Source of the DNA: Chiloscyllium plagiosum | Taxonomy: Eukaryota | Direction of reading: 5' to 3' | Length of the DNA stretch: 39,193 nucleotides | Assembly: GCF_004010195.1 (NCBI RefSeq) | Contig: NC_057756.1 | Coordinates: 4,083,232 to 4,122,424 of the forward strand | Part shown: piece after piece, positions 81 to 39,161 of the stretch | How the letters are laid out: every line of letters begins with the position of its first letter | Position numbering within the stretch: the first letter of the stretch is position 1 | The notes under the pieces: generated by a model | The model's database searches: none | The model's input: only the letters and a program-made list of their open reading frames with translations | Told to the model about the DNA's origin: nothing | Position numbers and translations under genes: made by a program

Positions 81-1557
81 ACCCGGAGCACCAACTTACA
101 GACTGGCCGGAGAACTACACGCAAGACTGAAATACCTAGTAGAAGAGTCACAGCACTCCATCCATTCCACCCAGTATTTCCTAAAAATCATCAAAAACAC
201 CAAAATAGCAGAAGACGAAATAATGATCTCATTCGACGTAACAGCACCTCTCAACTCCATCAACATCGACCTGGCAAAGGAAACACCTACCACACTTTGA
301 GAAGAGACCATCACACACTCCAAACACCATTGATCACATTACCAACGAAAACATCACGAAGCTACTGGACCTGTGCCTCAGCAGCCGCTTCACCTTCAAT
401 AACATAATCTACAAACAAACCAACGGCACACCCATGGGATCTACGCTATCAGGATTCATGGCAGAAGCGATAAAGCAAAGACTAGAACAAACAGCCCTAC
501 CAATCATCAAACCAAAACTCTGGGTCCGCTACGTAGATGACACCTTTGTCATCACAAAACGAAACAAAACAGGAGAGAAATTTAAAATGGTCAACAACAC
601 TCTCACAGGCATAACGTTTACCAAGGAGGAAGAAACCGAGAACAAACTCGCATTCTGGGACGTCACAGTCGAAAGAACGGACAATAGAGAACTACAAACC
701 TGCACATAAAGAAAACCAACAAACACTGAACAAATACTTAACTACACCACAAAAACGAAGCTATATCAGAACACTATTCCAATGAGCCACATCACACTGC
801 AGCATAGAGGAACTACGAAAAACAGCGGAGAACCACCTATACAATGTATTCAAGAAGAACGGATACTCAAAAAATACAGTCCGCAGATTCCTCAAGAACA
901 AACCAGGACAAGCAGACCAAACACAGCCAGAAACCCTAACCACCTTAGCATACATCAAAGAAGTTTCACAAATGACAGCCAGACTACTAAGACCCCTCAG
1001 AATCCTAGTAGCATACAAACCCACCAACACTCTCAAACAAAAACTAACAAACTTAAATGACCCAGTACATCCCATGGACAAAACCAACATCATCTACAAA
1101 ATTCCATGCAAGGACTGCCAGAAAAACTACAAGGACAAACAAGAAGAAAGTTAGCCACCAGGATACGCGAACACCAGCTCGCCACAAAAAGACACGACCC
1201 TCTCTCCCTCGTAGCCCGACACACGGGGGAAGAAAACACGATTTCGACTGGGACAACACATCTATCCTGGGACAGGCTAAGCAAAGACATGCCAGAGAAT
1301 TCCTAGAGCCCTGGCATTCCAACCACAACGCCACAAACAACACATAATGTAGATACCATCTATCAACCCCTCAGAAAACGAACAGGAAATGACATCACCA
1401 CAAACCCCAGGAAACCCATCCAGGAGAAACATATAAATAGAAAGCAGGAGACAACAGCGTTGCTTCACTTGGAGGTCGCCATTGATGATGTTCTCTGGCC
1501 AGGGAATGAAACGTCTGGATATCAAACCTACAGCCCAGCGAGGACACCTACACCCTA
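81..1557 (+). mobile_element. Penelope-like retroelement (RT + GIY-YIG endonuclease), decayed, with 3' end
   Basis: Frameshifted ORF pieces: PGAPTYRLAGEL, MISFDVT, NGTPMGSTLSG, WVRYVDDTFVI (YVDD at 530-541), FTKEEE..KLAFWDV, NIIYKIPCKDCQKNY, GQTRRKLATRIREH, FDWDNTSILGQAKQRHAREFLE. Confidence 0.93.
1474..1522 (+). ncRNA. Minimal hammerhead-ribozyme-like motif in the Penelope 3' end (core position C3 mutated)
   Basis: cca-TTGATGA-t-[gttctctgg|ccagggaat hairpin]-GAAA-c-GTC-tgg; the flanking cca/tgg can pair as stem I. Confidence 0.55.
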
Positions 1558-1559
1558 AA

Positions 1560-2665
1560 GTTGTATACGTATGATTGGTTAACTAGGATATATTAGATGG
1601 ATTCCAGGAAGAGGAACCATTAATATATAAAATTTGTTTGAATTTGGGAGACAGAGGGTGGAGGTAGACTGTTTTTTTAATTGATTGGAGACCCTTGGCA
1701 ACGCTGTGGTACAAGGATTGGTGATGGGTTCACAACTTTTTAGCATTCATACCAATGATCTGGACGTAAATATATGATGATTGTTTAGTAGGCTTTCAGA
1801 CAATACCAAAGTTTTCTGTGTCGAAGGCAGTGTAAAATGTCATCACAGAGTCCAATTTGACCGAGATCAAATGGGACGATGGGCTAAGAAGTGACAGATG
1901 GTGTTTAATTTAGGTAGATGCGAGGTATCGCATGTTGGCATTGCAAATCAGGGCAGGAATGAATGGTAGTGTCCTGGTGTCTATTGGCAAACAATGGCAC
2001 CAAGTAGTACAGTTCCATTGTTCCTTGAAGGTGCAGTCAAAGATAGGTAGTTCAGTGATAAAGGCGTTTAGCTCACACCTTCATTACTGAGTGCATTGAT
2101 TATCGGAGTTGGGACGTCATGGTGCAGCTTTACAGCTAATTAGTTCGACCACTTTCGGTATATTGTGTTCAGTTCCCTTGCTAATGGAGAGATGTTGCTG
2201 AATTTGAAAGGGAGATTTCTGCAACACGGTTGACGCTGGGGTTGGACTCTCGAAGGAATAAGGAGGGACTGAATAATTTAAGGCAATCATGCCTGGCGTG
2301 TCAGAAGCTGATGGCTGACCTGTTAGTTATTTATCAAGTCATAAGGGCCCTGGATAGGATAATAGCGAAAGTATTTTAGACCCAATCTAGCTGTCATAGG
2401 CTTAATGTGAAGGGAAATATTTAAGGTCGTGACATGCAACTTTACACGCAGAGGGTAATGCATGTATGGAATAAACTGCCAAACTAAGTGGCAGACGCTG
2501 ATATAGTTAAAATATTAAATGTCATCTGGCTGCATTCCAGAATGCCATGGGTTTCCAGGGAGATGGGCCACATTCTGGCAAATAGGACTAGATTATTTTA
2601 GGTTATATGATTATTATGAACAAATTGCTCCAAAGTTCTGATTTCACGCTATGCACCTCTCTGGT
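1560..2665 (+). mobile_element. Old CR1/HER1-type LINE, 3' part of ORF2 and 3' UTR, heavily decayed
   Basis: Remnants of VPQGSVLG, INDLD, SKFADDTK (gtaggctttcagacaataccaaa), 'MVQLYS.LVRPL..YCVQF' and FTQRV; typical 3' tail near 2640-2665. Confidence 0.8.
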
Positions 2666-6654: not shown

Positions 6655-7021
6655 TCGGGTCCAAACGGGAGAGGGTGACCAGCCTCAAGTCGTTGTCCAT
6701 GTAGGTACCAACGACAAGGGTAGAAAGAGAGATAGGGATGTAAGGCAGTATTTCAGGGAGCTGGGGTGGAAGCTGAGAGGTAGAACAAACAGTGTTGTTA
6801 TCTCTGGATTGTTACCTGTGCCACGTGATAGCGAGGCAAGTGATAGGGAGCGATATCAGTTGAACACGTGGCTGAAAGGATGGTGCAGGAGGGAGGGTTT
6901 CAGGCTTTTGAACGCTTGGGGCCCATTCTGGAGAAGGTGGGACTTGTATAAACAACACGGTCTTCACTTGAACCAGAGGGGTACTACTATCTTGGGAAAT
7001 TTGGTGGTGCTATTCGGGTGA
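6655..7021 (+). pseudogene. CR1 ORF1 C-terminus, SGNH/GDSL esterase-like domain
   Basis: QPQVVVHVGTND, VVISGLLPVP, LNTWLKGWCRREGFRLL, WDLYKQHGLHLNQRG (blocks III and V of the SGNH fold). Confidence 0.85.
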
Positions 7022-7109
7022 GATTACACTAGATCAGCAGGGGGATGGGAACCGGAGGTGTAGCTGCAGTACACAGGAGGATGAGAGTAGGAAGGACAGG
7101 GACAGGATG

Positions 7110-9887
7110 TCAGGGTCACAGGTATATGATGGCAGACAGCAAACTGGTTTGAAGTGTATCTACTTCAATGCCAGAAGTATCCGAAATAAGGTTGGTGAGT
7201 TTGCAGCATGGATAGGTACCTGGGACATCGATGATGTGGCCATTTCCGAGATATGGAAAGAGTAGCATGAGGATTGGATTTTGCAGGTTCCAGGGTTTAG
7301 ATATTTCCTTAAAAACAGGCAAGGTGGTAAAAGAGGCGGAGGCGTGGCCTTGTTAGTCAAAGATAGTATAACGGTGGCTGACAGAACTTTTTATGAGGAC
7401 ACGTCTACTGAGGAAGAATGGGCTGAGGTTAGAAACAGGAGAAGAGAGGTCACACTTCTTGGAGTTTATTTATAGGCTTCTGCAGAGTTCCAGTGAGATG
7501 GAAGAGAGGATTAGCAACATCATCTGAGGTAGGAGTGAAGGGAACAGAGTGGTCATTATGGGCGACTTTAACTTCCCCAACATTGACTGGGAATGTTATA
7601 GCTCTGGATCTGTTTTTGTTTCCAATGTGTACAGGAGGGTTTCCTGACACAGTATGTCGAAGGGACGACAAGAGGGGAGGCCACACTGGATCTCCTTCTT
7701 CGTAATGAGCCAGGACAGCTGTTTGATTTAGTTGCAGGTGAGCTCTTTGGAGAGAGTGACTATAATCCAGTTACGTTTAGTTTTGCAATGGAAAGGGATA
7801 GGTACATGCCAAAGGTTAAGAGTTATCGATGGGGCAAGGGCAATTATAATGCAATTAGGCAAGAATTGGGATGCATAGAATGGGGTAGCAAAATGCAGTG
7901 GATGCAGACAATCTAAATGTGGATTTGGTTTAAGGAACATATATTATGTGTCCTGGATAGGTATATCCCTGTCAGGCAGGGAGGAAGTGATAAGGTAAGG
8001 AAACCATGGTTTACTGCAGAAATTGCATCTCTTGTTAAGAAGAAGAAAGAGGCTTATGTGTTGATGAGGCAAGATGGTGCAGATGAGGCGATGGAGAGTT
8101 ACAGATCAGCTAGGAAGGATTTAAAGAAGAGTTAAGAATAGCAAAGAGAGGATACGAGCAGTCTTTAGCAAATAGAATAAAGGCGAATCCTAAAGCTTTC
8201 TATAGGTATGTGAGGAGTAAAAGGATGATTAGGGTAGGAATAGGGCCAGTCAAAGACAGAAGTGGGAAGTTGCGTGGGGACACCGTGGAGATTGGAGAGG
8301 TGCAAAATGAACATTTCTCATCAGTGTTTACTCAGAAAAAGGAGAATATTGTAGGGGAGAAAAGTGAGATACGAGATATTAGACTAGAAAGAATTGAGGT
8401 TAGTTACGCACAGGTGTTATCAATTCTAGAAGGAGTGAAAGTAGACAAGTCCCTGGGCCGAATGGGATTTATCCGAGGATTCTCTGGGAAGCTAGAGAGG
8501 AGATAGCAGAGCCCTTGGCTTTGATATTTGTGTTGACATTGTCTACGGGTTTAGTACCTGAAGACGAGGGGATTGCAAATGTTGTCCCCTTGTTCAAGAG
8601 GGGCAGCAGAGATTACCCAGGTAATTATAGACCACTGAACATTACTTCTTGTTGTAGGAAAGGTTATGGAAATAGTTATAAGAGATAAGATTTATTATCA
8701 TCTAGCAAGCAACAATTTGACTTCAGATAGTCAACATGGTTTCATCAAGAGCCAGTCGTGTCTCACAAATCTCACTGAGATTCTTGAGAAGGTGACCAAG
8801 AATGTAAATGAGGATAGGGCAGTTGACGTGGTATACCTGGACTTCAGTAAAGCCTTTGATAAGTTTCCACTTGGTATGCTGATGGAGAAAATACAGAGGC
8901 ATGGAATTGAGTGTGATTTAGCAGTTTGGATTAGAAACTGGCTTTCTGGAAGAAAGCAGCGAGTGGTGGTTGATGGAAAATATTGAGTCTGGAGTCTAGT
9001 TACTAGTGGTGTTCCACAATGATCTGTTTTGGGACCTCTGCTGTTTGTCATTATGTCTTAGACGTAGGCAGAGGTGGATTGATTAGTAAATTTGCAGACG
9101 ACACTACAGTCAGTGGAGTAAAAGGCAGTTTGGAAGAATGTTACAGGTTGCAGGGGATTTGTATAAACCGCAGAATTGAGCTAAGATGTGGAAAATGGAG
9201 TTCAATGCAGCTAAATGTAAGTAGATGCACTTTGGGAAGCATGACAGGTTGGCAGAATACTTGATAAATGAAAAGATTCTTGATAGTGTGAATGCGTAGA
9301 GGGATCCTGGAGTCCATGTGCATCGATCCCTGAAAGTTGTCAACCAGGTGGATAGTGCTGTTAAAAAGGCATATGGTGTGTTAGGTTTCATTGGTCGAGG
9401 GATTGAGTTCCAGAACCGCAATATCATGCTGCAACTATACAAAACGCTGGTGCAGCCACACTTGGAATATTGTGTACAGTTCTGGCCGCCCCATTTCAAA
9501 AACTATGTGGAAGCATTGGAAAAGGTGCAGAGGAGTTTTACCAGAATGTTGCCTGGTCTAGAGGGGAGGTCCTATGAGGAAAGGCTTAGAGACTTGGGTC
9601 TTTTCTCATTTGAAAGAAGGCTAAGGAGGAATTTGCACGAAGAGCAGAGGTCTAGTTAGGTTAACAGAGAAAGACTTTTTCCTATGATGTTGACATCAGC
9701 TTGTACGAGAGGGCATAACTACAAATTGAGGGGTTATAGATCTAAGACTGATGTCAGAGGCAAGTTCTTTACACAGAGAGTGGTAAGGGAGTGGAATACT
9801 CTACCTGCTAAGGTAGTCAACTCATCCACATTAGGGAGAATTAAACAATTCTTAGATAAGCTCATGGATGATTTTGGAATAGTGTAG
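7110..9887 (+). pseudogene. CR1 ORF2 (APE endonuclease + reverse transcriptase), multiple stops and frameshifts
   Basis: CIYFNARSIRNK, GKRGGGVALLVK, VVIMGDFNFPNIDW, PWFT, QHGFIKSQSCLTNL, VDVVYLDFSKAFDK, ISKFADDT (FADDT at 9091-9105), LYKTLVQPHLEYCVQFW, FFTQRVVREWN. Confidence 0.93.
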
Positions 9888-10574
9888 ATGGACAAGCTGA
9901 GAAAAGTCCACAGGTCGGCGCAACATCGAGTGCCGAAGGGCCTGTACTGCGCTGTATTGTTCTATGTTCGAAAATACTCCTCTGCAAGCAAGAAAATAAC
10001 GTCCTTATCTGTGCAACCAATCCAATGCGGCGAAAAAGAAAAAATGCTGCCAAGCTGAACTTTAATCAAACACGTACTGGCACGATTCTCCCTGGGACAG
10101 TATTAGCATCGACTGCATTCAAAGCTCTGATAAGATTCTCCAGCTGCAAGACGTTTACATCCCCGATTTCGCAATGCAGAACAAAACTGTTTCACTCTCG
10201 TCTGATCATCATATGCACCGCTGTAAATCCTCATGGAAATAGTCTCAGAATCTCAGCATCGCAGAGCTGCAAATTCTCTGCATTAATGTAACATAACTCG
10301 AAACAGCCTGGAATGAGTTTCTTGAAGAGTCACTACACTAGAGCAATATTGGAAAGCGTCAAAAAATAACACACGTCCAAGTAAACAGATTGATTTAATG
10401 AGTAAGAGCTGTTTAACATTTATATGCTTCGAGTTTTCTTGAAATATATATTTGTTAATCGCAAACGTGCTCATTTCCAGTGAGAAAGGGCTGAAAAATC
10501 ATTCATATTAAATCAGTTTTTTGTGAACATTCTCTGTTTAACTTAAAGGAGAAAGATTTGAAGCGGTAATTTAT

Positions 10575-11932
10575 AATCAGCTCAGTTTCTCCTGGTCTCA
10601 GCTGAAAGTTGAGAACAGGCCTCTTCCCTGGCTGTAATTTAATATGTATAAAATTGTGACTCCTGGGAACCCAAGTTTCAGAGAGACAGGCGGGACTGCG
10701 GACACTGTGGTAGATCCGTGAGCCTGAGATTATTGTGGAAAACCTGTGCACAGAACTGGCTCCCCCAAGGGCAAAGAATTCGATACACGGAGCGATGTGG
10801 TGAATAACAAGTCCAGAAAGTGGACATGAAAGCATGATTAGGAATCAGCATTGGCCATTGTGCTGAGAAACACCGAAATTCGTTAATACAGCGGCAAGCA
10901 GGGTAAGGGGGCAGAATGTTCTTTCAACGACAAATGGGGACAGCCGTATTCTAGTACAATGGGTGCTTTTACTGCACAGGAGAGGAGGAAAAACTCTGGT
11001 AATCCTGCAGTGACTGGGGGTTCAATGATAAGTGGAAAAGCTAACTGCTTCTGTGATCAATATCATGGGCGCCACAAGAGATTCAGAAGTGGAAGAGTAA
11101 TTATCGAGGAGTTGTTTTTTCCTTGGTTTCAAGGAGAGCAGAGTAAATATAACCTTTGGTTCTGAAATGGAAGATGGAGTGTTGAGGAGGAAGTATAAAA
11201 GTTGGAATTCAGAGATAATGGTATCAGGATTGTAAACATAGTCAGGTGCTGCTCAGTGTCTAAATAGTGTGTATTTTGGGTGAAAATGTAAATGTTGAGA
11301 TGTTGCTATGATGTGTCCTTCTGTGTCCAACATTATTGGGAACAGATCTGGCAGAAGTGGGAACCAAGAAAAAAAAGTCTAAACAGTTCACTTCTTGGCA
11401 TTATATGGACTGATTTTCCAGAGAGTATTTGATTTTTCCATTGTGGAGGGTTTGAAATGGGAAGAAAGAAAGAGGGGACTGCAGAAGAAAAAGAGAATCA
11501 AAGTTTAGAAAATTAGAAATCTGCTATGTACACAATTAATGTACACGAATCAAAGAGATCTGACTTAAATTGCGGAACATTTCTACCAAAGCAATCCTTA
11601 TCCATATAAACAGGCATAATAATTTAAAATATGGTTTGGACTACAGCACAGAGCTGCAGTACCAGAGGTGAGAAAGGAGTATACAGTCGCACTTTCTTTT
11701 TTGGGAAACAATGAAAAAAAAAATGGTTGGGTACTATTGTTAGATAAAGTAACATTAGCACAACAGTCAGGAAAATACTAACTCCAGTAAATCGAAATCC
11801 TTACAGGTCGATCACAGAAACAGAAGGAACAGGAAACAAGAATCACGTTTTATGCAATCGTGCAAAAGAATGATAATTTCAGTGAAATTGCAAAATAGCA
11901 AGTTAGAGACAAAGCTATGATTATTGGAGTTT
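10575..11932 (+). mobile_element. Old CR1 LINE, 5' half (ORF1 and start of ORF2 endonuclease); interrupted at ~11932
   Basis: LRTLW*IREPEIIVE (ORF1 coiled-coil region), AQERRKNSGNPAVTGGSMISG (decayed 'AIVIGDSIVRG'), IMVSGL, GGWVLL-type segment, ending in MIIGVF (decayed 'VIMGDF'). Confidence 0.7.
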
Positions 11933-12053
11933 TTAGCGCAAACATGCTGGTTTCCCATCACCAAGTACACATTTACTTTCCTGTGCATAGCATATTGACT
12001 GCAGCCTAGAAGCGAAAATTGTTCCCAGAATTGAGGAGATTGCAATCTGCTGG
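11930..12053 (-). mobile_element. 3' part of a short LTR-like host element (split by the nested array)
   Basis: Minus strand ccagcagattgcaatctcctcaattctgggaac...ggctgcagtcaatatgctatgcacaggaaagtaaatgtgtacttggtgatgggaaaccagc. Non-CR1 sequence directly after the CR1 break. LTR identity is inferred from layout and recalled similarity to shark solo LTRs. Confidence 0.55.
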
Positions 12054-13450
12054 ATATGAAATATACAAATATACATAATTGTCAATAGTTAACAGTAAGC
12101 AGTGATACACAGTGAAAGGAGGACGAGAACTAAACCCCAAGCCCCACCATAGAACTAATTTACAAGGAAATGCAGACAAACCTTAATTTTTCAAAGAGGA
12201 AACAGGAGACACAAATGCATACAAACAAACCAATCAAGCAAATAATAAATTGATTCATACGACACACAGACCCCTGGCAAAACAAATGACTTACTCCATT
12301 CAAAATTAGGAAGCTCCAAGGCAGCCCACCACTCTACCTGTTGCAGTTCGAACCTCACCATTACCCACTTCTGGCTCTCCTTCATCGCCACACACCTTAT
12401 AGCTTTCGGGCCGCTCCTTCTCACCTTCCAGCTTTCATTCCATTCTAAAGCACATAACAGCTCTCGGACGCCCCAAACAATTTTCTGGTCACCTCGAAGT
12501 AAGCCCGTCCCCTTACCTCCAAGGGACCTCCACAATGTAAGCCAACCATATTCAATCACTACCTATCGTCCGTCACTCAGAACTGTCTAGTCATCTTCTG
12601 GCTCTAGGAACGGCCAGCTCTCGTCATTATCTCCCCACCGTCCATCTCTCGTGACCGTGTACTCATCTTCAGGCTGACGGGTGCTTTATCCACCTTCCAT
12701 CTCTTGCGATGCCGACTAACCTTTCAGCTCTTGGGGCAGCCTTCCTACCTTGCAGCTTTCAGGATGACTGCTTTCGGACAACCGATATACCTTTTGGTTT
12801 TCAGAGCAATCTAATCACCGTCCAGGTCCCAGTAAGACTGCCAGACCCAGTGACACACAAGGCACATTGCAGGGAAAACAAATGAAAATCAAAAAGGCTG
12901 TGTCTATTAGTATAACAAAGTCCATACCTGAAGGCGGAGACTACGTCCGAAAACAGAGTCCACTTCAATACACAGAGTCCACTACAGAAGGCAGTGCATG
13001 TGAATTGGACAGGACACATATATTATGCAGTCTCCACAGTGGCCCATGCCCATACACAGAGACACAGTCAATTTGTAAAGGTGAAGCTGACTGACAGGGT
13101 TTAATCCAAGCAGGAAACAAAAAAAATTAAAACACATGAAAAATCAAGTGCAAACACTAAAAAACATATTAAAAGGGCCCAGCTCTGCCACAACATCATC
13201 ATTGTCTGTCCTTAAACAATAAAGGTTTAACAAACAGTCTGCAACCAACTAGTGCAATAAAGAAAAGCTCCATAATGAGAAATATAAAAAAAAGTACATA
13301 CTAGCTCTGTGGCCTGCCTGCTCAGAATCAGTTCTGAAAATGTAGTCTATAACACATAGTGGATGTGTGGACCTCCAGCACAGGAATCCGTTACCAGTTT
13401 CAAGGGTAGGCACTGGTGGTGGCCAGCCACATCAGAGTCTTTCCACAGAA
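12054..13450 (-). mobile_element. Insert A: ~1.4 kb non-coding putative non-autonomous retroelement
   Basis: Colinear similarity to inserts D and E (gaaatgcagacaaacc, gacacaaatgcatacaaac, agagtccact repeats, ataatgagaaatataaa); three ~55-bp units at 13292-13450; bounded by the junction motif. Confidence 0.7.
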
Positions 13451-13515
13451 CTGCAGTTATTCTCATCTCCTGTTATTTTTGTAAATTAACCTTCCTTAAA
13501 ATACAATGCATAAAT

Positions 13516-13520
<5 letters not shown>

Positions 13521-13565
<45 letters not shown>
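13521..13565. repeat. (TA)n microsatellite
   Basis: Uninterrupted TA run. Confidence 0.98.
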
Positions 13566-13568
<3 letters not shown>

Positions 13569-13811
13569 TGCAATACTACAGGAAAGCAGGGACGCAAACA
13601 CAAGAATTTCGAATTATCATCAAAATCAACAACAATACAGAAAACTATACAGAAGTCTTTCACAATTCACTGTCCACTGGAAAAAGTACCATAATTATAT
13701 TCGTACAGAAAATGAACCTTTACAGCCATCAGGCCTAAGTTGCCCAATGGGAAAATGCCGATATCATGTAGCTATAAAGCTTTACGCAGCACCTGAAATC
13801 ATGCATCACTT

Positions 13812-13915
13812 TTATGAATGGCTTGGATGAGGAAGTAGAAGGGTGAGTTGGTACGTTTTCCGATGACACAACAGTTGGTGCAGTTTTCGAAAAGTAGAGG
13901 GTTTATGTAGGTTGT
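13812..13915 (+). mobile_element. Short CR1 RT fragment inside insert B
   Basis: MNGLDEEVEG*VGTFSDDTTVGAV, matching INDLDEEVEGWVSKFADDTKVGGV. Confidence 0.75.
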
Positions 13916-14052
13916 AACTTGTCCAACATTCCAACTGCTGCTCTTCAGCCTTTCAGTTTCCAGTCTCCCTGCATACGACAGATGACTAACCCATCATAGG
14001 CTTGTTTTGCTCCTGGCCAGTCATTAGCAACCTGGCTACGGTTCGCACTGTG

Positions 14053-14101
14053 TAGATTAGATTAGATTACAGTCTGGAAACAGGCCCTTCGGCCCAACAA
14101 G
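14053..14101 (-). mobile_element. Extreme 3' tail of an HE1 SINE / HER1 LINE with (TCTAA)n tail
   Basis: + strand tagattagattagattacagtctggaaacaggcccttcggcccaacaag, the reverse complement of the shared LINE/SINE tail. Confidence 0.75.
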
Positions 14102-14914
14102 CCGCCCACAAATCATGTACTGACTGGCCATCCACTGGCTGGTTTCCAAAGGGCTGCCATTGATTGCCTGTTTCCCGGCCGCCCTGCATAACGATAGAAC
14201 ACCTCAGCCCACTTTCCTCAAGACCTGTCATCAGCCCTCGGGGTCTCGTCCGCCCTGCATTTTCATTGGAAGCACAGTCCCTCCATCCTCCAGGCCAGTT
14301 ATCAGTCCGCTGGCTCCAGGCTTCCCTGTGTACTGACTAGACCTCTGAGGCCAGCATTACTCTCATTTGGCCATCTGCTCTCCAGCTTATGGCCACCCAT
14401 GCAACATTGGATCGTACCATGCCTTCTGTCACGCAGACTGGATGTCGGCCATCAGGCAGCCTGCATCTGATGTTCTGATCCTAGAGAATGTGTTTTTGTT
14501 TCGAGAACAGAGTCCACATCCAAGAGCAGATCCTCCAAACCAATTGAAGTTCACACACAGATGCAGATCGATGCATATGTTTATGGTTTACTCACTCGAA
14601 CCGATTCCAACTGCGTAAGCATGTTCCATCAGGAAAGGCATGGTCATCACGCAGGGCAACCTGTGAGGGCACAAACCATAACACAACAGGTTATGGCATG
14701 TGACGTTACTGAGACACGATGGAACTCATATGTCTTTCTCACAGTGCCACAGGTTGTTGTCAGACAGTCCTCAAAACAAAAGAAAACCTAGAACAAGTAC
14801 TGGATACTTGGCTGGTCAGCTCAGGAATCAGTTACCAAATAGAACAATACACATTGCTTGTAGCTAGCTAACTCGAAGCCAGTTCACTGAAATGTGGAGA
14901 TTCTATTCTGTGCA

Positions 14915-15600
14915 TATACATATCATGTTTTTCTTAATTATTTTCTCTATCCCTTCATTAGACAAACCACCCTTTTGCCAAAGTACCTTGTGACAAAGCA
15001 GGTTCAGAGCCAGCAACGCTGATGTGTAAGCGAAGGTGGGGTGGAGGGTGGGGTGGCGGTGTAGGAATAAAATCAAAACACAATTAAGCAGGGAAATAAA
15101 TCACTCCATTCCCCATGTTGTCCACCTCTCCCTAAAGGCATCGAGTGCATTGGCGGACCCCACATACTACTTTTCCATGGACACCAGGGCCAAAACATAC
15201 CTGTGGAATAGGGACACGCAGTCGGCCATAACGAACCCCTCCACAGTTTGTTGCCTAGACTTATTAAACGCCTGCTTGTCAAGGCCAAGAGTCATATACA
15301 TGAAGAGATCCTCTGACCTGCCCGCTCTGGTCTGCACCAGATGTGCAAAGATCAGGAAAATGGGATGAAGTGCAATCAAAAGCAGAGGATAAGACCCATC
15401 AGGTAACTGAAAAAGAATGCAAATGCCCATACTGAAGACATACCACGGCACCGCAAAACAAACAGTTGGGCTGGGAGTCTGAAACCATCAAAGTCTGTAA
15501 TTGTGCAGGAATGCTCCCTGCAATGTATCCAAATCACCAAGTGAAAGAGGAAGGATCCCCGCGTAGAGAGCACCCCTGACACCAAGCTTTTCCGGTGGCA
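14915..15600 (-). mobile_element. Insert C: 5'-truncated L1-clade Tx1-type LINE (ORF2 C-terminal zinc-binding region, short 3' UTR, A-rich tail)
   Basis: Minus strand ALYAGILPLSLGDL, DSQPNCLFCG, LHPIFLIFAHLVQTRAGRSEDL..MTLGLDKQAFNKSRQ..EG..MADCVSLFHRYVLALVSMEK*..ALDAFRERW; tail gagaaaataattaagaaaaac at ~14927-14947. Confidence 0.85.
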
Positions 15601-15671
15601 CAATCACACACTGGCTGTGATCAGCAAGCTAGAGGTCTGTCCCCAAAACTGAGGAGAGTCTGATATCCTGG

Positions 15672-17071
15672 ATATTTATTTTTAGTTAAACTGTACAAAA
15701 CTGCAAACAGTCCACAGTGAACAGTAAACTGGAATTTGCAGAGGAAACGATCATCAAGGCAAAGTCCCAAACCACACCACAGAATAAATTCACAGGGAAG
15801 TGCGGATGAACCTAGACCCCACCTTCACTTGGCAAAGGAGAAACAGTAGACACAAATACATCCAAACCAGTCAGTTCAAACAAACAATAAAACTGTGGAT
15901 ATTACACAGGCACCCCTCTTAACCAGCAAACCACTCACTCCTCCAACCTTCTGGCTACTCAAATGCAGCTGGCTACTATGCTCCCCTCTGGTCTCAGTTC
16001 GCGCCACGCTCGTTCTGGTTCTCAGTCCGCCCTGACGTGACTTCCGAACACTTCTTGGACTGCTTGTCCCATTATTAGCCCAGGTCAGCGGCGATCACGA
16101 CAGCCTAGTCGCGTCCGGTTCTCTGTCACTTCAACCCACCATCCGACTTTTCATTGTACCAACGCGCCATACATATCTCGACCACAGCGCCGTACCTTCA
16201 GCGACTGCTGGGTTAGGCTATCACTAGACATCCCAGGGATGACAGTGCCTTGCACAAGTGCCTTCCAGTCCTCTACATACATTCAGGCCATGGGTCAGCC
16301 CTGACCCACCTTCAAGCTATCTCGAGGATAGCGCGTTCTGTTCCTTCATCAGGACGACAGCGCTAATGCTGAACTTCTCATGTTTCACCTATAGGAACGA
16401 CCGGCATCAGCATAGCCAACCATTTTTCTGGTTCTCTGGATGGCCGAAGTACCGTCCAGTTCTCGAGGTGACAACTTTCACAACGACATATGAACTTTCT
16501 GGCACACAGTAAGGCCTGTCACGTACAGGAACACAAACGACACAGTGCAGATAATGAAACCAACAATCAAAAATGCTGAGTCCATTTCCGAAGGAAGAGT
16601 CCACTCCAAAAGTCCGAGTCCTCTCCACAAGGCAGCGAATGCTCTCATCACAGGTGTTAAGTCTCTACAGTTGTCTCGTTAATCCAGAGTCCCAGGCGCA
16701 CTCACAGATATGTGGTTCACTTGTAAAGGTGCAGCGGACGCCAACCCAACACAAAAATGTAATGTACACACTAAAAACCACAGTGCAATAGGCATGCCCT
16801 GTCACAAAATCAGCATGAACCTTGCTCAAAAGAAAATGAACACAATTACAATCGAGCTGCAATCAGCCAGGGAAACATTAGTTCCCTGGTGAGAACTAAA
16901 ATATAACAGTATACAATGACTGTGCGGAGAACCAGCACAGAAGTCAATTCTAAAAAATAAGAAGCTGTAACACACAGGCTGTGTAGAAGCCAGATCCGAG
17001 ATCTGTCCTCAAAAAGAGTAACAGGAACACACTGGATGTGGCGGCCAACAGAGGAATCAGTCAAGTGATTT
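15672..17071 (-). mobile_element. Insert D: ~1.4 kb non-coding putative non-autonomous retroelement
   Basis: Minus-strand 3' end ttttgtacagtttaactaaaaataaatat directly before the junction motif; colinear with A and E; three ~55-bp units at 16907-17071. Confidence 0.75.
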
Positions 17072-17092
17072 GAGGAAATTCTAATCTCCTGG

Positions 17093-18679
17093 TTAATTTC
17101 TATTTATCGTTTATTAAACTGCACAAAAAAGTCAACATTGAATAAGAAACAACAGATTGCCATCAACTGCAATTTACAAGGGAAAGGGGTGAAACAAACC
17201 CAAACCCCAACGTATAATCAGGGACATGCAGACAAACCCCCAAACCCACCTTCTCTCACCGAACAAGAAACAATCGTCAGAAATACATACAAAACAGTCC
17301 GATTAACTGAATAATAAATCAGTGCATGTAACATGGGCACCCTTGGTAAACCACCAAACGCCACTCCCCAACTTGTGACCACTCAAAGGCAGCCAGCTCA
17401 ACGTTCTTTTGGCTCTTGAAAACCCCATGTACCTTCCAGCTGCTGATGCATCCTCGCTCAGTTTCTGGTCAGCTATATAGCAGCTTATCCAGTTATCATC
17501 CCGGGACTACGGCGATCAGGACTGGCTACATACTTTCCGACTTTCTGATGCGCGCCTTTGCACCATCGGATTCTTAGTCTGCCCAACAAGCCTTCCGGCT
17601 TGTTGGGTTAGTTAGTCCTGGTACATTCACAGGACAACAGTGCATAGTCTGGCCTACCAAATATCAGCTCTTGGGCAGCCAAAACACATTCCCATTCTCC
17701 ATCCCTCTTCTGCACCTTGCAAGTCTCTCTCACTATGACACACAATTCTGCCCATGGACCGCCATGATACACCTTCCAGCCACGTCGAGAAAAGCCCATC
17801 ACACTCGGGATGATGGTGCTCATGATGACTTAACCACCTTCCAGATCACAGCGCGAATGGCATTGGGAGTGCCTACTCATTTGAACGTTTTCAGGATGGG
17901 ATATTCACTATTCAGTTCACTGGACGACATGCCACCGTCCGGCATTCAAGGTGACAGCTTTTAGGACACCTATAAATCTTTCAGCCCACAGTAAACCTGC
18001 CACACACAGGGGCATATAAGACACAGTGCAAATGATAACATTGATAATCAAAAAGTCTATTAACAAGGTGGAGACCACTTCCAACGTAAAGTCCACTCTG
18101 GGAGGCAGAGCGTACTCCCGAACGCAGACTCTATTCCCGACGGCAGACTCCACTATATTTTGCCACGTATACTTCAGTATGCAGCAAATGCACACCTCCC
18201 AGCGCACACACAGGTGTTCAGTCTCTTCAGAAGCGTGGTCAATCCACAAAGCGCCAGGACCACTCCCAGAGATAGAGTTCATCCATAATGTTGCAGTTGG
18301 CACACAGGGGATCAGTCCAAACACAAAAAAGGTGAAAACAAATGAAAAAGAGAAGGACAGACACCAAAAGCCATCGGACAAGGGCCAAGCCCTGCCACAA
18401 AATCATTGTAATTCTTGCTCAGAAATAAAACAAAGACAGTAACACACCGGCTGAAAACAGCCAGTGAAATACCAAAACAACAGTTCCCTAATGAGAACTA
18501 AAATACAACAGTATACAGTGGCTCTGCAGCTAGTCGGCCCTCTCAGAAATCAATCCTCAAAAACGTACAACACGAACAAACTGTCAATGTGGAGAGCAAG
18601 CTTAGAGATCAGTTCTGAAAAAATAATAACAGTAACACATGGCTGTGGCCACACAGCTCAGGATTCAGTCAATTGATTT
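17093..18679 (-). mobile_element. Insert E: ~1.6 kb non-coding putative non-autonomous retroelement
   Basis: Minus-strand 3' end ttttgtgcagtttAATAAAcgataaatagaaattaa (AATAAA at 17110-17115); colinear with D; three ~55-bp units at 18509-18679. Confidence 0.75.
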
Positions 18680-18800
18680 GAGGAGATTCTAATTTCCGAG
18701 TAATGTTTTTGGGATTGAGCTTTCCTGATTATCCCAGGTTAACAACTTCAATCCAGGACCCAATTGTCAACGAAGTCCACCTGATTCCAATCAATATATA
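18680..18800 (-). mobile_element. 5' (promoter-side) part of the LTR-like host element
   Basis: Minus strand tatatattgattggaatcaggtggac...ctggattgaagttgttaacctgggataatcaggaaagc...aaaaacattactcggaaattagaatctcctc. Lies between the last insert and the resumed CR1; decayed CCAAT-like (taatcagg) and A-rich TATA-position segments. Confidence 0.5.
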
Positions 18801-19060
18801 AATCTCTGTGTAAATTAGGCGAAATAAATTTCTAACAACACTGCAGAGAAGGAAATTGTGGAGTTTAGGTCAGATGATAATCTGGATCAAATCATTGAGG
18901 AACAGATTTTACAACAAACACTGGATAATGTGTAATTCCAAACGAGGAAACCCTGACATCGATCCGTGAATCCATGTGGAGAAGTGTGACTCTCGTGTAA
19001 TTTATCTTCTATTAAAAATGGAAAATGGCATCGCTGATTCTGAGACTGTGCTCGAGAATA
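18801..19060 (+). mobile_element. Continuation of the CR1 endonuclease interrupted at ~11932
   Basis: NLCVN*AK*ISNNTAEKEIVEFRSDDNLDQIIEEQ... matches 'NLHIDWANQISNNTVEEEFLECIRDGFLDQYVEEP', which follows VIMGDF in CR1 ORF2; ends ..DSETVL. Confidence 0.7.
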
Positions 19061-19654: not shown

Positions 19655-22600
19655 AAAACTGGGTCTCTGGGAATGCTCCTAAGGCAATATTGTGGAAATA
19701 AGGGGCACCTACATTGCTTATGGTGAGTATACATTCAGCAAGTGTGTTCAATTGCTGCATGGAAACCCCAGGAGCTGTGAAGGGGCTCTCTATTGATCAT
19801 CAATGAAACGACATGGATGGCACAGTTGGCGAGCTGGTCAGATCACCAGCAAGAGCTACACAGTCAGCGCAAAGTACAAATACCACCAGGAGAAAGAGTA
19901 ACCATGGCCAAGCAGTGCAGACCATTGCAATCACACGCAGCGATACTGTTGGGGGGACTCTCAGGGGAAAGCAGCAGTGTGAGCCAGGTCAGTGACACAA
20001 AGTCTAGCAAAGTTTTAAAATATGGTAGGTCGGATTGCAGGCGAGATATAGTGATAGGGAATTCTATCGTCTCCACACACATATTCGGTACTGTGAGTGT
20101 AAGATTGTTTTGCCTATCTAATGCCAGATTAAATATATGCCTCAAACACCTAATAATATTCTGAAGGTGAAGCGTGAGCATTCAGTCTTTGTCGTGTATA
20201 TTAATTTGAACAAAGGAGGTAGAAAGAGAGATGAGGTCCAGCAAAGGGTGTTCGGGACATTTGGTAAGAAGATGAAAAGCAGGCCGTTTAGGCTTATGGT
20301 ATGGGGATTAGTTTCTGCGTCACATGCAATTCCACCTGGAAGAGAATTATCTTAAGTGCCTTACACAATGGTGTGGTAACGACAGCTTCAGATATGCGCA
20401 TTATTGGGAATTCTTCTGGGGAAGATGGGACCTGTACATGATGCTGGGAAGCATCTAACCTGGCGAGGCACAGATCTGCTGGCAGGGAAGTTTATTAGTG
20501 CGATCCGGGACGTTATAAATTACAGTAAATTCGTTTGAATTAGATTAACACGGAGGCAGGAACAAGAGGTCAGCAACTGAGATAAAGGCCAGTCACGCTA
20601 AGAGGAAGAATAGACGGCGACAGCATTTGTTGAACGCAAGAGACAAACAGCCTGAATTGTGTTTGCTTTAACACGACTAATAAGACAGAAAGCTTAGATT
20701 AATTCGTGTAATTCTGAATTTGTAGATATTAGAATCTTGGTGGACAGAGTGTCAAGATATGTACTTTAACGCCTCCTGCTGACATGATTCCGGCATGACA
20801 GAAAAGGGTGCGAATGAGGTATGGAAATTGTGTTACTTATAATTAAAAACGGCGCGGCTGTACTGAGGACTGCGCATTAGAAGAGTCACCCTATGATGGT
20901 TAATGGATACAGTTTGCTATGGATCAGTCTAGGCCCGCTCAAAATAATGCAAAAAGTAGACTATACCCTCATTTTTACTCATTTTGAATGCAGATGTGAA
21001 GCGGATATTCTCCATGTGATGTAGCTGAGCAAAGCACTCAGCTTTAAATAAAAAGGTTTTTTTTTAAACACTACAGGTGAAACATGAATAAAAGAAAACA
21101 GAATTTAGAGAGGCAAATCGTCCGACAGATTCGTTATAGTAACTTAACAAAGAAGATATTCCAACTCCTGCAGCAACTCATAAACACACCCCTGAACAAA
21201 AGGCAAATTCAATAACAGATTGTTACAAGCAGGAGGGTTTTCTGAGAGAAAAGCAGTCAAGAATCGTCTGCTGAAACATGGAAACTACTTTCCATGTAAC
21301 AGTTTCCCTGCAATCAGGAGCACATAAGTGCCTGCCAAAACTGAACCAAACTAGAAAAACACCTAAATTGTGTGAATTAGCCACACCTCTCCCATTGTTA
21401 AAGTCAACATATCGGAACATCTGTCTTTACGACCTCTCTTGAACAAAGCAAAGGAAAAGATAACCTTGTTAAAGTGATAGCATCGTTGCAAGCTCAGGAA
21501 GTCAGGAAGTTCAATCACCTTCGCGAAATCGTTCTGTAGTCCTTTCAATAGCCAGCGAGTGACAGAAGAATAATAATATGGACACATTAGTGAATCAAAA
21601 TAATGCCCAAAAAACACACAGGTTTCTTGTGGTGGTTATGTACAACTTCTCCTGCATTGATTGGGACTGGGACAGATGGGATTAACTCGCATTTGGTAAA
21701 CATATGGACTTGTTACAGATAGGCAGCACAGCATTCTGCGGGATGGTAGTGCAGTTAAAACTTCATTGACGCTTTAATATAATTGATAAAGAAAATTGTT
21801 GAGCGCAATACCATACATATAAATGTTTTCAAAGAGATAGTGGATGACCAGATTAGTGCATTTCCAGATGTTGCAAAGGCTGGAGGTGTGGTGGATCGTG
21901 AGGAGGATTACCAAAGCATACAGCACTATATAGATAGACTGCCGAACTGGTCAAATACATGAAAGATATTATTTAGTCCAGATAAATGCGAGGTGCAGAG
22001 TTTTTTTTTTAAATCTCATGCAGGTGAGATGTAAACAGTAAATGCAGAACTCTTTGGATCCTTAGTGTATATGGAGATACAGGGGCATTAGTTCGCAGTT
22101 CCTTGGAAGTGGAGACACAGGAGGATATGGTAGCATTGATGGCAGAAAAGCATATGTGTGTTAATCTATCAGGGCGTCTATGTGTAATTTTGTGGAAATT
22201 TAATAAGGTCACATGTGGATTAGTGTGTGCAGTTCAGATTGCCACACAACAAGATGGATGTCGAGGCATTGCAAAATGTGCAGGTACATTTTTGCAGAAT
22301 ATTGCCTGGTTTGCAGGTATTGAAGGGAGATTTGACAAACTTAGTTTGATTTCACTTGAAAATTGCAAGAAGAATGCAGACTTGATTGATGTTTACACAA
22401 TTAGGAGAGGCATTAATGTAAAGAATAATCAGAGTCTTCTGTTTTCTTTGTGAAAGAAATATTATTAACTAAGCAAGTCAGTTTAAGATAAAATGGGTAA
22501 AGAATAAACGAGATGTGAGAAGCAGGTTGTGGTGACACGGCGTTTAAGTGGCTGGAAAAGGCTTCCAGAGGAATTGGTGAATGCTGGAACAATGGCAATG

Positions 22601-23269: not shown

Positions 23270-23935
23270 GTTAGCTAGCAGAGATGGTGGGGGGTTTGTT
23301 GTCAGACATTTCATCACAATTCCAGGTAACATCATCTGGTGAAGGGTTAGTGTTCTGTACCTCTTGCTATTTATATGTCTTGATTTCTTTAGTGTGTGAT
23401 ATAATTTCCGGTTTTGTTTCTCAAAGTTTGGTCAATGGGGTACGAAGTGTAATACTAGATTTGTGGACGATAATGATGCTTCGTGGCTGGAGTGGTCTGC
23501 TGGTCATCTAAGAAATGACTTTCATGTATGTTAGCATGGCTAGCGGGTATGTTGTGTTTTCCTGTTTGGGTCCGTTCTGCAGGAACCAGCAGACTGCGTT
23601 TATCAGGTGATCATTGCTCATGAATGCATTATATAGATGTATTTCCCCGGCTTGTCATAGGTCCGGGATGTGGCAATGCGTCATGGCTTGTTTAAATACT
23701 GTCCTGTTGCAGCTCCATTTGTGGGTGTTGAATGGTTACTTCTGTAGCTGAGTATCTGATATATGTTTGTTGTTTCACTGTTAACGCCGGTCTGCAATTC
23801 TCCATTGGCTTTTTGTTCAAGCATAATGTCGAAAAAGGGGAGTCGGATATTGTTCTCTTCCTCTTTTGTGAATATTGCACCGGTGAGGATATTGTTTATG
23901 TTTGTGATGATTTTAAAGAACCTGACACTTACGTC
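23270..23935 (-). mobile_element. Penelope-like element (first family): RT C-terminus, linker and 3' end, lacking the GIY-YIG core
   Basis: INNILTGAIFTKEEENNIRLPFFDIMLEQKANGELQT..QILSYRSNH; its end matches the reverse complement of 1380-1530. Confidence 0.85.
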
Positions 23936-24372
23936 CAGCAGAACGAATGTAATATTGAAAATACCATACAAAGCCTGCAACAAACATTACTTTGGCCAAA
24001 TCAGCACGAAGCCAACCAACAGAATCCAAGCGCATTATTTAGTCATCAACAGGCGTGGCCAACTATCACTCGTATCCATACACACAGATGAAGAGGGACA
24101 CCAGTTTTTTTGGGACAATTCATCCATGCATAGAGGCCTCAGGCCTTCAACCTGTAATTCCATCTACAAACATATAGACGTAGAACCCATTTAACAACCT
24201 CTTAGAAATGAAACCGGAAATGTTATTACTCAGTACGACAAACGTAGACACATAAATAGCAAGCCCGACAGGACACCACTCTTCACGGGCAGCTCACACA
24301 TGATGTTACTAAGCATGACGACCAAACTTCTTAGAACAAACCCACTAGTTCAGCAAGCAAAGCAATAACATG
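23936..24372 (+). mobile_element. Penelope-like element (first family): GIY-YIG domain and 3' end, inverted relative to its neighbour
   Basis: SRTNVILKIPYKACNKHYFGQIS...LSLVSIHTDEEGHQFFWDN, SIYKHIDVEPI; 3' end resembles 1350-1550. Confidence 0.85.
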
Positions 24373-27300
24373 ATGATACGTTTCATGATATATTTTCTCA
24401 CTACATTCAAAACTGAGGGGATGAGTAAGACACAAAATGTTGGGAAGGCCTGCGTCTAGCTTGATACATGTATTGAAGGTAAGTAGCATTTGCAGTGCAA
24501 TTGTATTGGGCAATTAATGCGGTTAACTCTGATAAGTACTGAAGATTTGCTATAAAACCAATATTCCCAGAGTAGTGAAAAAGTCCTGAATGCAGCAGTG
24601 ATCAATTTTTAGAGTTATATGGATTCTTTGTGTATTTGCATAGTTTGGAAGTAGCTAAAATAAATGCATGAATTCTTTTTTTAAAAGAAGTAGGACAAAA
24701 TAGACAATTGCTCACTCTTTAGCAAGTTGTGGGTAGTCCATAAAATATTGGAAAGAATGTCAAAAGGTTTAGTTAAACATCACTTGGAAAACAAATGACA
24801 GGATTGTTAGGACTATGCATCATTTGACAAAAGAAACACAGTGGCTTGAAAAAAATACTGATTTTCTTTTAGAATATGCTTGGAAGGGAGGAATAATGGC
24901 TATTGCTTTCTTGGCCTTCAGAAAGTCACGCAAGAAATTTGCATGGACAGTTGAAGTATAAATGAATAAATGTAGCGTGTGGACAAGCCTAAACAAGGGT
25001 TTTTGGCAGACACAGACAAAGTCTATGATGAAACAGGTCATTTTTATTCTCAACTGGCGATTATAATAGTGGAGAATTACAGAAGTAAATGCTGGAGTCC
25101 AAATATTCGCGATAGGTTCTGATGGTTTTCGTGCCGGAATAAAATGTTACTCTGAAGTGCAAAACGTTCTAAAGTTCGTGTAAGATGGACAACTATCAAC
25201 AGAATTCAAAGATATTTTAATGTGATTTGGACAGGTTGAATGAAGAGGCAAATACATTGTAGAAAGACTATGATATTTTTAGTTGTGGCATTTTTCCCTT
25301 TGGTAGCAAAATTAAAAGAATACAGATCACCATCTGAATGACAAAACTTTGGAAGTTTGGAAGCACAACAGGACCTGAATTTATTTTTCACTTCTCATGG
25401 AAAATAATATGCAAACAGGTGCAGTCGATTCCGAAGCAGACATCAGCCATGTGGGCCTTTGTAATTCGCTAATAAAAATACAGATACAACAAAGATGTAA
25501 TGTTAAAATGTTACAGGCTTTTGGTAATTTTGCACCTGTAGTATTGTGTGCAAAACTTGTAACCTTTTCTGAAAGGAATGTTATCATTCAACACAGAATG
25601 CAAAGGAGTTTCACCAGACTAATTCCAGGACAAACATTTAAACCAAGAGTGATTGGATTACGATTTTATATTTGTCAATCGAATTTATCTCATTGAAACA
25701 TGCAATGTGCTTACAGAACTGAACAAGGTAAATGCAGGAAGTTTGCTCCAGATAACGATGGAGACCAAAATTTCGGGTGACAGACTAATGCAATGTTGTA
25801 ACCATTAAGGGTTCGTATGAGGAGAGACTCATTCAACCCAGGGATTGGTGAGAGAATGAAATACTCTGCTTCAAAATGCAAACTGCTGCCGGCAATCTGA
25901 ATGCTTTTAAAAATGCAGACTTGTATCATAACAAATCCCACAGTGCTGCACGATGTGTTTTAATCAAGCAGACATGTTTGACAAATGAAGGTGGAAACCC
26001 TTCAATCAAATCTTTGTGGGTTTTTTGCTCAGAACGTGGGATTGATTAGAATACAAAAGGTCTGGAATATGAAAATAAAGAAAAAAGTGATGGAATTCAT
26101 CAATTGATGTATTCCAGGATGCATGAGCCACAGTTTGCAAATGTTACAACAAATCAAATTAGTGGCAGGTCGACAATGTGATGGATAATATCTATTGGAA
26201 CATTTTTCTTTCTGTCATTCAATCTTAATAAAACTCGAGATCAAACAGCGTTATAGTTTGCGTCTTCTTGAACCCAGTACTAATCTTATTGTTGTGATCG
26301 TGATTCCGTTTTTTCACAGATACTTCGCAGATCGACATTACTCTCGGTACTTTTTTTTAATCATTCACATGCAGTTTCTTTCACATGTTTTGCAATATAT
26401 TTACGTTAAACGTTGTTTTTTTTTACTTGAATAGATAAGCCAGAGTCAGAAGACGTGGAATAAAATGAGTTGATCATGCCACAATCCTTGTGAATTTTCA
26501 GGATAATGAATACAGCTAATCTCATCACAAAATATTAAGGTTGAGAAGTATACGGCAATGTTTTTTTTTGCTGCTTGTCTCACATTCGAAACTATGACTG
26601 AAATTCAAAGCAAATCATTAACATTATTAGGTTAGTTGTGATTTTTATAACGGTGGCCACAATGGTGGTATATTGCATTAAAATGCTTATTCCCAAGAAT
26701 ATAAATTTACTAAAGATAGTTCAATGTTGCAACTGGCTCGCAAAAAAAGCCGTTAAATTCAGAAACATGTCTCATTGACCTCTGCGTGAACAATCCACAT
26801 GCAATGCATTTTTATCGCGCAATACACATTGATTCAGGAACGGAAATAAGTACAATCTAGGCAAAGTCATGAGTGATTGCATACACCCACTTTGTTTTAT
26901 GCAAATGTCAATGTCAACGTGAATACTAAATGAACCGTTTGTAGATTGCTGTTTGAACAGACTGTCGTTATCCCAGTCTAGACAGGAATAATGCATAGGA
27001 ACCTGCAGAAAACCTATTATGGAGGAGTCCAAACGAATTATCCTGGAAATCTAGCTTCATTTTGACATTTGCGTGCTAAATCCCCGATGGCATAGATTCT
27101 CTTCAGGGATGTGTAGATCAGATGCATTCGCCACGGGAAATTTGGTGTTATAAGGATACAGTGGGGTCGCAATGGGAATGTGCCTTTGTTAGATACTGTC
27201 GGAGTGTCATTGTGCAATCCCTGGGCCATATAGCCTGCGTACACTCTGGAATATTTCTCTGATATTTTAATGAATCTAATACCCTCCAAAATATTCTCAC

Positions 27301-38954: not shown

Positions 38955-39161
38955 ATAGAGTCATAGGGTAGTACAGCACCGAAGTAGACACTTCAATTCA
39001 ATTCGTCCCATGCCAATCACATATACTAAAGTAATCGAGTATCATTTGCCAGCATTTGGCCCATACCCCCGAAACCTTCCTGTTCATGTATCCGTCCAGA
39101 TGGATTTTACATTTTGTTGCTGTGCAAAACTCCACGACTTCCTCTGGCAGGTTGTTCCATA
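38955..39161 (-). mobile_element. CR1/HER1 LINE 3' end
   Basis: Reverse complement reads WNNLPEEVVE...HLDGYMNRK..GYGPNAGK, then the 3' UTR and tail. Confidence 0.8.

What the first reader, a model, noticed from the sequence alone, without database searches (positions are those of the whole stretch)
16907..17092. Stacked ~55-bp target-derived tags at insert 5' ends (HeT-A-like tag accumulation)
Seen: inserts A (13292-13450), B (~14740-14893), D (16907-17071) and E (18509-18679) each end on the + strand in three diverged tandem units of roughly cagtaacacactggctgtggccagccagctcagagatcagttctcaaaa. The 5'-truncated Tx1 (15601-15650) and the outer host flank (~11985-12032) have only one. Inference: the outermost unit is the fresh target duplication and the inner two were inherited. 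An element inserted just downstream of the host promoter would be transcribed from within the duplicated target, so each retrotransposition cycle would add one tag. A truncated copy would show only one, as observed. Known analogy: Drosophila HeT-A accumulates 5' tags from its upstream neighbour's promoter.
Basis: partly seen in the sequence, partly recalled or inferred. Interest (0 to 1): 0.8.

Follow-up and report, generated by a model that had tools for sequence, protein, structure and literature searches.

The report
Retroposons carry stacked LTR leader copies
Old jumping-gene copies piled up at the TATA box of a terminal repeat begin with two to four copies of that repeat's predicted first transcribed ~55 bases, likely captured on rare occasions by read-through from the borrowed promoter and then inherited, not added in every round as first proposed.

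Summary
The units are real. B has two clear units and a marginal third. The truncated LINE piece and the outer flank have one each.

The host is a multi-copy LTR-like repeat. Inserts sit at its TATA box, 27 bp past a CCAAT box. The outer P+unit (~75 bp) behaves like a local copy: E1/D1 are 78-81% alike, above all 23 body windows, and likeness falls along the stack.

'One tag per cycle' is not supported. Three inserts only ~59% alike have the same count, and their inner units are about as alike as their bodies. Best reading: the leader pairs with the target and regenerates the outer unit with no net gain; rare unpaired or out-of-register joins add a tag that is then inherited. This closely parallels R2's published 5'-extension model, here at an LTR promoter. 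Unit trees are unresolved and transcription is untested. New variant of a known kind.

The parts
18701..18798 (-). 5' part of the LTR-like host: CCAAT box position at 18728-18732 (decayed in this copy) and TATA-like box just before P
   Evidence: summed depth about 2050-2550 at 18716-18763 against 11-16 for single copy; majority variants at 18731/18732; loose ends in 15 (X3) and 11 (X9) contigs join this part to a TATA-like motif and P; likeness ends near 18793-18811
18626..18700 (-). P + outer unit T1 of insert E
   Evidence: 81% alike to D's P+T1
18436..18625 (-). inner units T2 (18564-18625), T3 (18504-18563) and fourth block (18436-18503) of E
   Evidence: T3/T4 junction is multi-copy with unit-like loose ends
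17095..18435 (-). body of insert E, A-rich 3' end, no recognised ORF
17018..17092 (-). P + outer unit T1 of insert D
16843..17017 (-). inner units T2 (16959-17017), T3 (16903-16958) and fourth block (16843-16902) of D
15680..16842 (-). body of insert D, A-rich 3' end
   Evidence: about 59% alike to E and A
15600..15671 (-). P + single unit before the truncated LINE piece X
   Evidence: held-out E 9e-6
14915..15599 (-). X: 3' fragment of a non-LTR retrotransposon ORF2 with 3' UTR and A-rich end (L1/Tx1 group)
   Evidence: (27 relatives, best E 2e-12)
14735..14914 (-). head of insert B: P, T1 (14842-14896), T2 (14786-14841), marginal third unit (14735-14779)
   Evidence: B2 pairs with A2 in trees (87-94 support in 3 of 4 trees)
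13480..14734 (-). body of B, not homologous to E/D/A, interrupted by a very high-copy repeat (14053-14103) and a CR1-like piece (about 13805-13920, label recalled)
13401..13473 (-). P + outer unit T1 of insert A
13228..13400 (-). inner units T2 (13343-13400), T3 (13290-13342) and fourth block (13228-13289) of A
12056..13227 (-). body of insert A
11980..12053 (-). host's own P + unit (F), decayed
   Evidence: P score 34.7; unit part: 3 of 1197 background as high; P+unit Z 3.0-6.6 to the other five
11930..11979 (-). 3' part of the LTR-like host with a poly(A)-signal-like hexamer AGTAAA at 11972-11977; exact end not fixed
   Evidence: sequence; joint 11966->17071 in one contig each of X1 and X5 links this part to P at another locus

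Best explanation
Five retroposon inserts are stacked at the TATA box of a multi-copy LTR-like repeat, and the ~55-bp units at their 5' ends are copies of that repeat's predicted leader, likely captured on rare occasions by read-through from its promoter and then inherited as a fixed head. Steps: (1) shown: same site, same orientation, promoter anatomy, P only before outer units. (2) Inferred: a Tx1-type LINE protein nicks at the TATA box and copies the RNA. (3) Inferred: the insert nearest the promoter is transcribed from the initiator, so its RNA begins with the unit but not P. (4) Inferred: the cDNA end pairs with the matching unit of the target, and P plus one unit (~75 bp) is rebuilt from local DNA, so the count normally stays the same. 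(5) Inferred: a join without pairing, or one unit out of register on a resident head, adds a unit that descendants keep.
For: Host anatomy and copy number. Initiator match YYANWYY 17-19 bases into P in 5 of 6 heads, about 26 bases after the TATA-like motif (the heads are homologous, so this is one observation). P absent before all inner units. Units end about 11 bases before the host's poly(A)-signal-like hexamer. E1/D1 78% against a body median of 60%, above 23 of 23 body windows, and close to E's 13-19% distance from its nearest family contigs (X3 records 2-6). Likeness of P+T1 falls along the stack: rho -0.81, rank 8 of 720 orders. Same count in 3 of 3 homologous inserts; T3 pairs 64-70%, fourth-block pairs 56-69%, bodies 58-59%. 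Position labels rank 5 of 216 permutations. Unit-like sequence next to the T3/T4 junction in 11+10 (X3) and 12+9+3 (X9) contigs. B shares P+T1+T2 with its neighbour A but not the body, as out-of-register or neighbour copying predicts. Precedent in R2 (PMC3774820, passages).
Against: Unit trees are unresolved. The ladder test was framed after seeing the matrix and leans on the E-D pair and on F; the plain neighbour test was not significant (144 of 720). A and F, which should be a duplicated pair, are the least alike (49%). T2 of E and A is less alike than any of 22 body windows (48.5%), and a clade of E2, D2, A2 was rejected at p 0.02 in one alignment, so T2 may have been gained separately. The truncated piece X has a full P+unit though a simple truncation would carry no leader to pair, so long duplication without homology must also occur, or X lost its middle. 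No transcript start was observed.
Confidence: 0.55

Rival explanations
1. Conveyor: every insertion makes a ~75-bp duplication and every source generation adds one tag, so the head records successive host LTRs.
For: X has P+unit without a leader. T2 is the least position-conserved inner unit. Inner units lack P. All 3' boundaries are alike.
Against: Same count in 3 of 3 inserts that are ~41% diverged, about twice E's distance from its nearest relatives. T2 is within the body range in 2 of 3 pairs. It needs the same number of source generations in three lineages.
Confidence: 0.17
2. Fixed element-borne head: P and all units were captured once, multiplied by ordinary tandem duplication like L1 monomers, and travel with the RNA; the true target duplication is short.
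For: Constant count. Trees do not show an outer clade. Unchecked earlier notes report 13-15-bp duplications at this kind of site in this genome.
Against: Units of one insert do not form clades (p 0.006, 0.023, 0.020, one alignment). E1/D1 are more alike than their bodies. Unrelated inserts X and B have the same P+unit. P lies upstream of the predicted start and would not be in the RNA.
Confidence: 0.15
3. Template jumps: the reverse transcriptase jumped from the insert RNA onto short LTR-initiated RNAs, adding leader copies as in SINEU heads.
For: Also predicts units starting at the start site. Repeated 5' additions by template switch are described for SINEU (PMC4494074). It would explain X.
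Against: SINEU additions end at positions up to 22 nt apart, whereas these units end alike. It does not explain the contiguous P+unit or the gradient along the stack.
Confidence: 0.1

Closest known systems
R2 5' extension by duplicated 28S target (Eickbush et al. 2013, PMC3774820; passages)
   Same: RNA starts in co-transcribed target sequence; pairing of cDNA and target is proposed to give uniform junctions; occasional unpaired joins give tandem target copies that can be propagated; earwig R2 carries 22 bp from downstream of its site in all copies.
   Different: Here the target is an LTR promoter, not 28S; the 5' end is set by a predicted Pol II start, not a ribozyme; units are ~55 bp and 3-4 deep against 13-28 nt; the likely enzyme is APE-type.
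Tx1-8_Crp, Tx1-4_AMi, Tx1-Mar and SINEU of crocodilians (Kojima 2015, PMC4494074; parts 2-4 of 5 read)
   Same: Tx1 families that prefer LTR retrotransposons or a transposon as target, tandem insertions, non-coding passengers, sequential 5' additions, a 5' extension from the target transposon, and proposed transcription from flanking target.
   Different: No stacked copies of the target's own leader, no ~75-bp repeated junction and no TATA-box placement were described in the parts read.
Drosophila HeT-A 5' tags (10.1101/782904; passages; the primary papers were not read)
   Same: 5' tags from an upstream, borrowed promoter in a head-to-tail array.
   Different: HeT-A tags come from the 3' end of the upstream element at telomeres. 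These units match the host repeat, the array is interstitial, and the count looks fixed.
R9 of Adineta vaga (126-bp stagger; PMC6895275 passage) and tandem R1 arrays (PMC2718515 passages)
   Same: Long duplication at insertion (R9); repeated insertion into the duplicated target (R1).
   Different: R9 and R1 target rDNA; R1 spacers are 14 bp; APE LINEs usually give 10-20 bp.

Membership tests
HeT-A/TART/TAHRE | arrays at chromosome ends | tested here: not met
   array lies inside a dispersed repeat with other DNA on both sides and is orthologous in organism B
HeT-A/TART/TAHRE | tags derived from the 3' end of the upstream element | tested here: not met
   unit profiles hit no insert 3' end; units follow P, which belongs to the host
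HeT-A/TART/TAHRE | transcription from a promoter outside the element | not testable with these tools
   inferred from motifs only
Target-specific Tx1-clade LINE system | ORF2 with APE endonuclease and reverse transcriptase | tested here: inconclusive
   X holds only the C-terminal part. 1 of 9 relatives scanned hit RVT_1, below the cut-off; P0024 matches human L1 ORF2p at E 2e-4; its APE-like N-terminus is recognised from recall. E, D, A, B gave no useful Pfam hit in the frames scanned
Target-specific Tx1-clade LINE system | placement in the Tx1 clade by RT phylogeny | not tested
   no RT domain in the array; the Tx1 label rests on recall and unchecked earlier notes
Target-specific Tx1-clade LINE system | repeated insertion at one site of a multicopy target, one orientation | tested here: met
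   5 of 5 inserts end directly before P on the minus strand; host is multi-copy
Target-specific Tx1-clade LINE system | target duplication of 10-20 bp (APE LINE norm) | tested here: not met
   about 72-75 bp are repeated at all six junctions
R2-type elements | HDV-like ribozyme at the 5' end | tested here: not met
   no Rfam match; no shared fold of the units, 0 of 12 with z below -2
R2-type elements | 28S rDNA target | tested here: not met
   no rRNA in the window
Solo LTR (host) | multicopy; CCAAT, TATA, start site, poly(A) signal in order | tested here: met
   this copy's CCAAT and TATA are decayed
Solo LTR (host) | TG...CA ends with 4-6-bp target duplication | tested here: inconclusive
   5' end near 18798 is TG-like in other copies; 3' end and duplication not recognisable
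Solo LTR (host) | link to a Gypsy internal region | not testable with these tools
   no genome held; Gypsy label from recall and earlier notes only

The most novel reading that the evidence does not exclude
A vertebrate retroposon family that borrows an LTR promoter adds one leader copy per source generation, so each element's head is an ordered, readable record of the LTR copies its ancestors were transcribed from, and a ~75-bp duplication by an APE-type LINE drives it.
Probability: 0.2. Interest if true: 0.7.

Novelty: new variant of a known kind. Interest (0 to 1): 0.42.

Why it matters
It suggests how a promoter-less passenger keeps landing in frame with a borrowed Pol II promoter: its own leader would rebuild start site and spacer at each insertion. 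That extends the R2 junction model to an APE-type system at a protein-gene-style promoter. It also offers thousands of natural junctions, in principle, for asking whether RNA-target pairing sets the second-strand cut, an open point of LINE integration (PMC6895275 passage). The copies here are old, shared by two organisms, and decayed, which limits direct use.

Tried and rejected
No whole genome is held, so copies could not be counted genome-wide. Two motif scans of metagenome contigs and two of viral contigs found 0 loci. No RNA holder was listed. One poly(A) single-cell run, about 2 in 100 read, gave depth of 0.33 or less over the heads and no start pile-up; this says nothing about expression. 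Two joints in X3 that look like heads one unit shorter (18513->18595, 18521->18599) were set aside: E2's 5' half resembles third units, so they may be third units mapped to E2. Only 12 of 168 loose-end rows and 24 of 1353 were shown. Ribozyme or structured RNA: rejected. tRNA: none. Terminal inverted repeats of a DNA-transposon host: none over 15 bp. Coding by E/D/A/B: 22 frames scanned, one weak hit at E 0.16; Atlas hits for E's longest frame at 0.80 or less. Word-index search and Atlas for X found nothing; the full HMMER search did. The outer/inner tree split was dropped. B3 was left out and the fourth blocks out of both trees. Literature: searches (Tx1, TATA box, LTR, site-specific insertion, cartilaginous; 4 of 5 terms) gave 0 papers. 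The Tx1L paper PMC85248 is not held. Supplements of PMC4494074 (junction figures S3-S6) were not looked at and may show similar heads. Repbase could not be searched.

Full report
Setting. The window is animal DNA rich in old retroelements. The named relatives of the LINE piece in the array are whale-shark gene models (8 of 8 looked up), so it is shark-like. No genome is held. On the minus strand, 18700 to 12050 is a head-to-tail stack: E, D, X, B, A. E, D and A are homologous over their whole 1.4-1.6 kb at about 59% and show no recognised protein. X is the C-terminal part of a LINE ORF2 with its 3' UTR; one relative matches human L1 ORF2p. The Tx1 label is from recall and earlier notes, not from a tree. 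B matches the E/D/A profile only over its first ~145 bases. Contigs from two studies of organism A cover the stack, and organism B has it with about 5-8% differences (table 8; record 9: 42 differences and 10 gaps in 701 bases). The insertions are therefore real and old.

The observation. The units exist at the stated places. 10 of 12 core units were recovered as top hit when held out; A1 and B1 were not, but exceed all 1197 background segments by pairwise score. The flank unit and B's third unit are weak (3 of 1197; 2 of 600). E, D and A have a fourth conserved block, with a unit-like 3' half in E and D only. A ~22-bp motif P precedes each of the six outermost units and nothing else in the window. 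The units have no shared fold and match no RNA family.

The host. The 80 bases upstream of E are high-copy: summed depth about 2050-2550 against 11-16, with 37-45 contigs at the variant positions. In 15 and 11 contigs of the two runs this segment runs on into a TATA-like motif and then P. The majority variants restore a CCAAT box 27 bases before P. A contig in each of X1 and X5 joins P to the sequence that follows the stack (joint 11966->17071), so that flank is the host's other half. It holds AGTAAA about 11 bases past the unit. An initiator match lies 17-19 bases into P in 5 of 6 heads. The order CCAAT, TATA, initiator, unit, poly(A)-like signal in about 230 bases reads as a solo LTR, with the unit as the start of its transcribed region. 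The Gypsy label is untested. Every insert ends in an A-rich run directly before P, that is, at the TATA box. Earlier unchecked notes on this genome describe the same landing site; my spacing of 27 bases agrees with two of them.

Is the outer unit a local copy? E1 and D1 are 78% alike, more than any of 23 body windows of E and D. That gap of about 20% is close to E's 13-19% distance from its nearest family contigs. Likeness of P+T1 falls from E towards the flank (rho -0.81, 8 of 720 orders), as expected if new inserts land at the promoter end and copy the resident junction. Against this: the test was framed, the neighbour test was not significant (144 of 720), A and F are only 49% alike, and the outer clade did not survive. 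I rate local origin likely, not shown.

Does the count grow each cycle? Three inserts that differ by about 41% have the same count. T3 pairs (64-70%) and fourth-block pairs (56-69%) are at or above the body level; T2 pairs are 59, 59 and 48.5%. Position labels rank 5 of 216 with B and 4 of 36 without. Other family contigs also have a unit next to the T3/T4 junction. So most of the head was fixed before these lineages parted. T2 is the open point: it is low in one pair, A2 pairs with B2 in 3 of 4 trees, and no other contig matches E2 at 80%. The contig tables gave no clear case of another count, but showed few rows.

Mechanism. Shown: site, orientation, host anatomy, P only before outer units, constant count. 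Inferred: a Tx1-type protein nicks at the TATA box; the insert nearest the promoter is read from the initiator, so its RNA starts with a unit; the cDNA end pairs with the unit in the target and P plus one unit is rebuilt from local DNA, with no net gain; a rare unpaired or out-of-register join adds a unit that is inherited. B, which shares two units but no body with its neighbour A, fits out-of-register or neighbour copying. X needs a long duplication without a leader, or loss of its middle; this is the weakest point and keeps the conveyor alive. Confidence 0.55; conveyor 0.17; fixed head 0.15; template jumps 0.10.

Comparison. R2 offers the closest published model: co-transcribed target sequence pairs to give uniform junctions, unpaired joins give tandem target copies, and these can be propagated to extend the 5' end (PMC3774820, passages). 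Crocodilian Tx1 families target LTR elements, and SINEU shows sequential 5' additions and an extension from its target (PMC4494074, parts 2-4). HeT-A tags come from the upstream element at telomeres (10.1101/782904, passages). R9 has a 126-bp stagger, APE LINEs 10-20 bp (PMC6895275, passages). Tandem R1 arrays are spaced by 14-bp duplications (PMC2718515, passages). Passages of PMC4640811 added nothing on tags. The system works like R2's 5' extension but is not an R2 or HeT-A member. I found no paper on stacked LTR-leader copies at retroposon heads in seven searches; Repbase and subscription papers were out of reach.

Verdict. Real, partly as described. New variant of a known kind. Interest 0.42.

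Noticed in passing
window 13729-13799 (-): A decayed stretch resembles B's T1-T2 (self-match E 0.011; score above 400 of 400 background segments). It may be a seventh head whose P was lost beside a CR1-like piece.
   Followed up: partly
window 18396-18405, 18160-18230: Parts of E's body are far more abundant in contigs than the rest (depth about 290 at 18380-18403; about 8400 near 18197): conserved family motifs or a match to another repeat.
   Followed up: no
window 17996-18054, 16515-16573, 12837-12895 (-): A conserved pyrimidine-rich stretch ending in CAG in E, D and A looks like a splice acceptor (family D3; alignment).
   Followed up: no
run X9/X13 contig at 18697->18599: A contig of organism B has a part-unit, 24 other letters, then P and a unit: another locus with a short insert or a different head layout.
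   Followed up: no
window 593-1575 (+) and 23271-24386: Two decayed copies of a Penelope-like element (label recalled); the second has inverted and direct parts.
   Followed up: no
window 6700-9960 (+): Long decayed CR1-like LINE (label recalled), with further fragments at 1711-2627, 22210-22317, 32903-33081, 38981-39161.
   Followed up: no
window 14053-14103: 50-bp piece of a very high-copy repeat inside B; it is the only part of the stack with many RNA reads, many poly(A)-joined.
   Followed up: no
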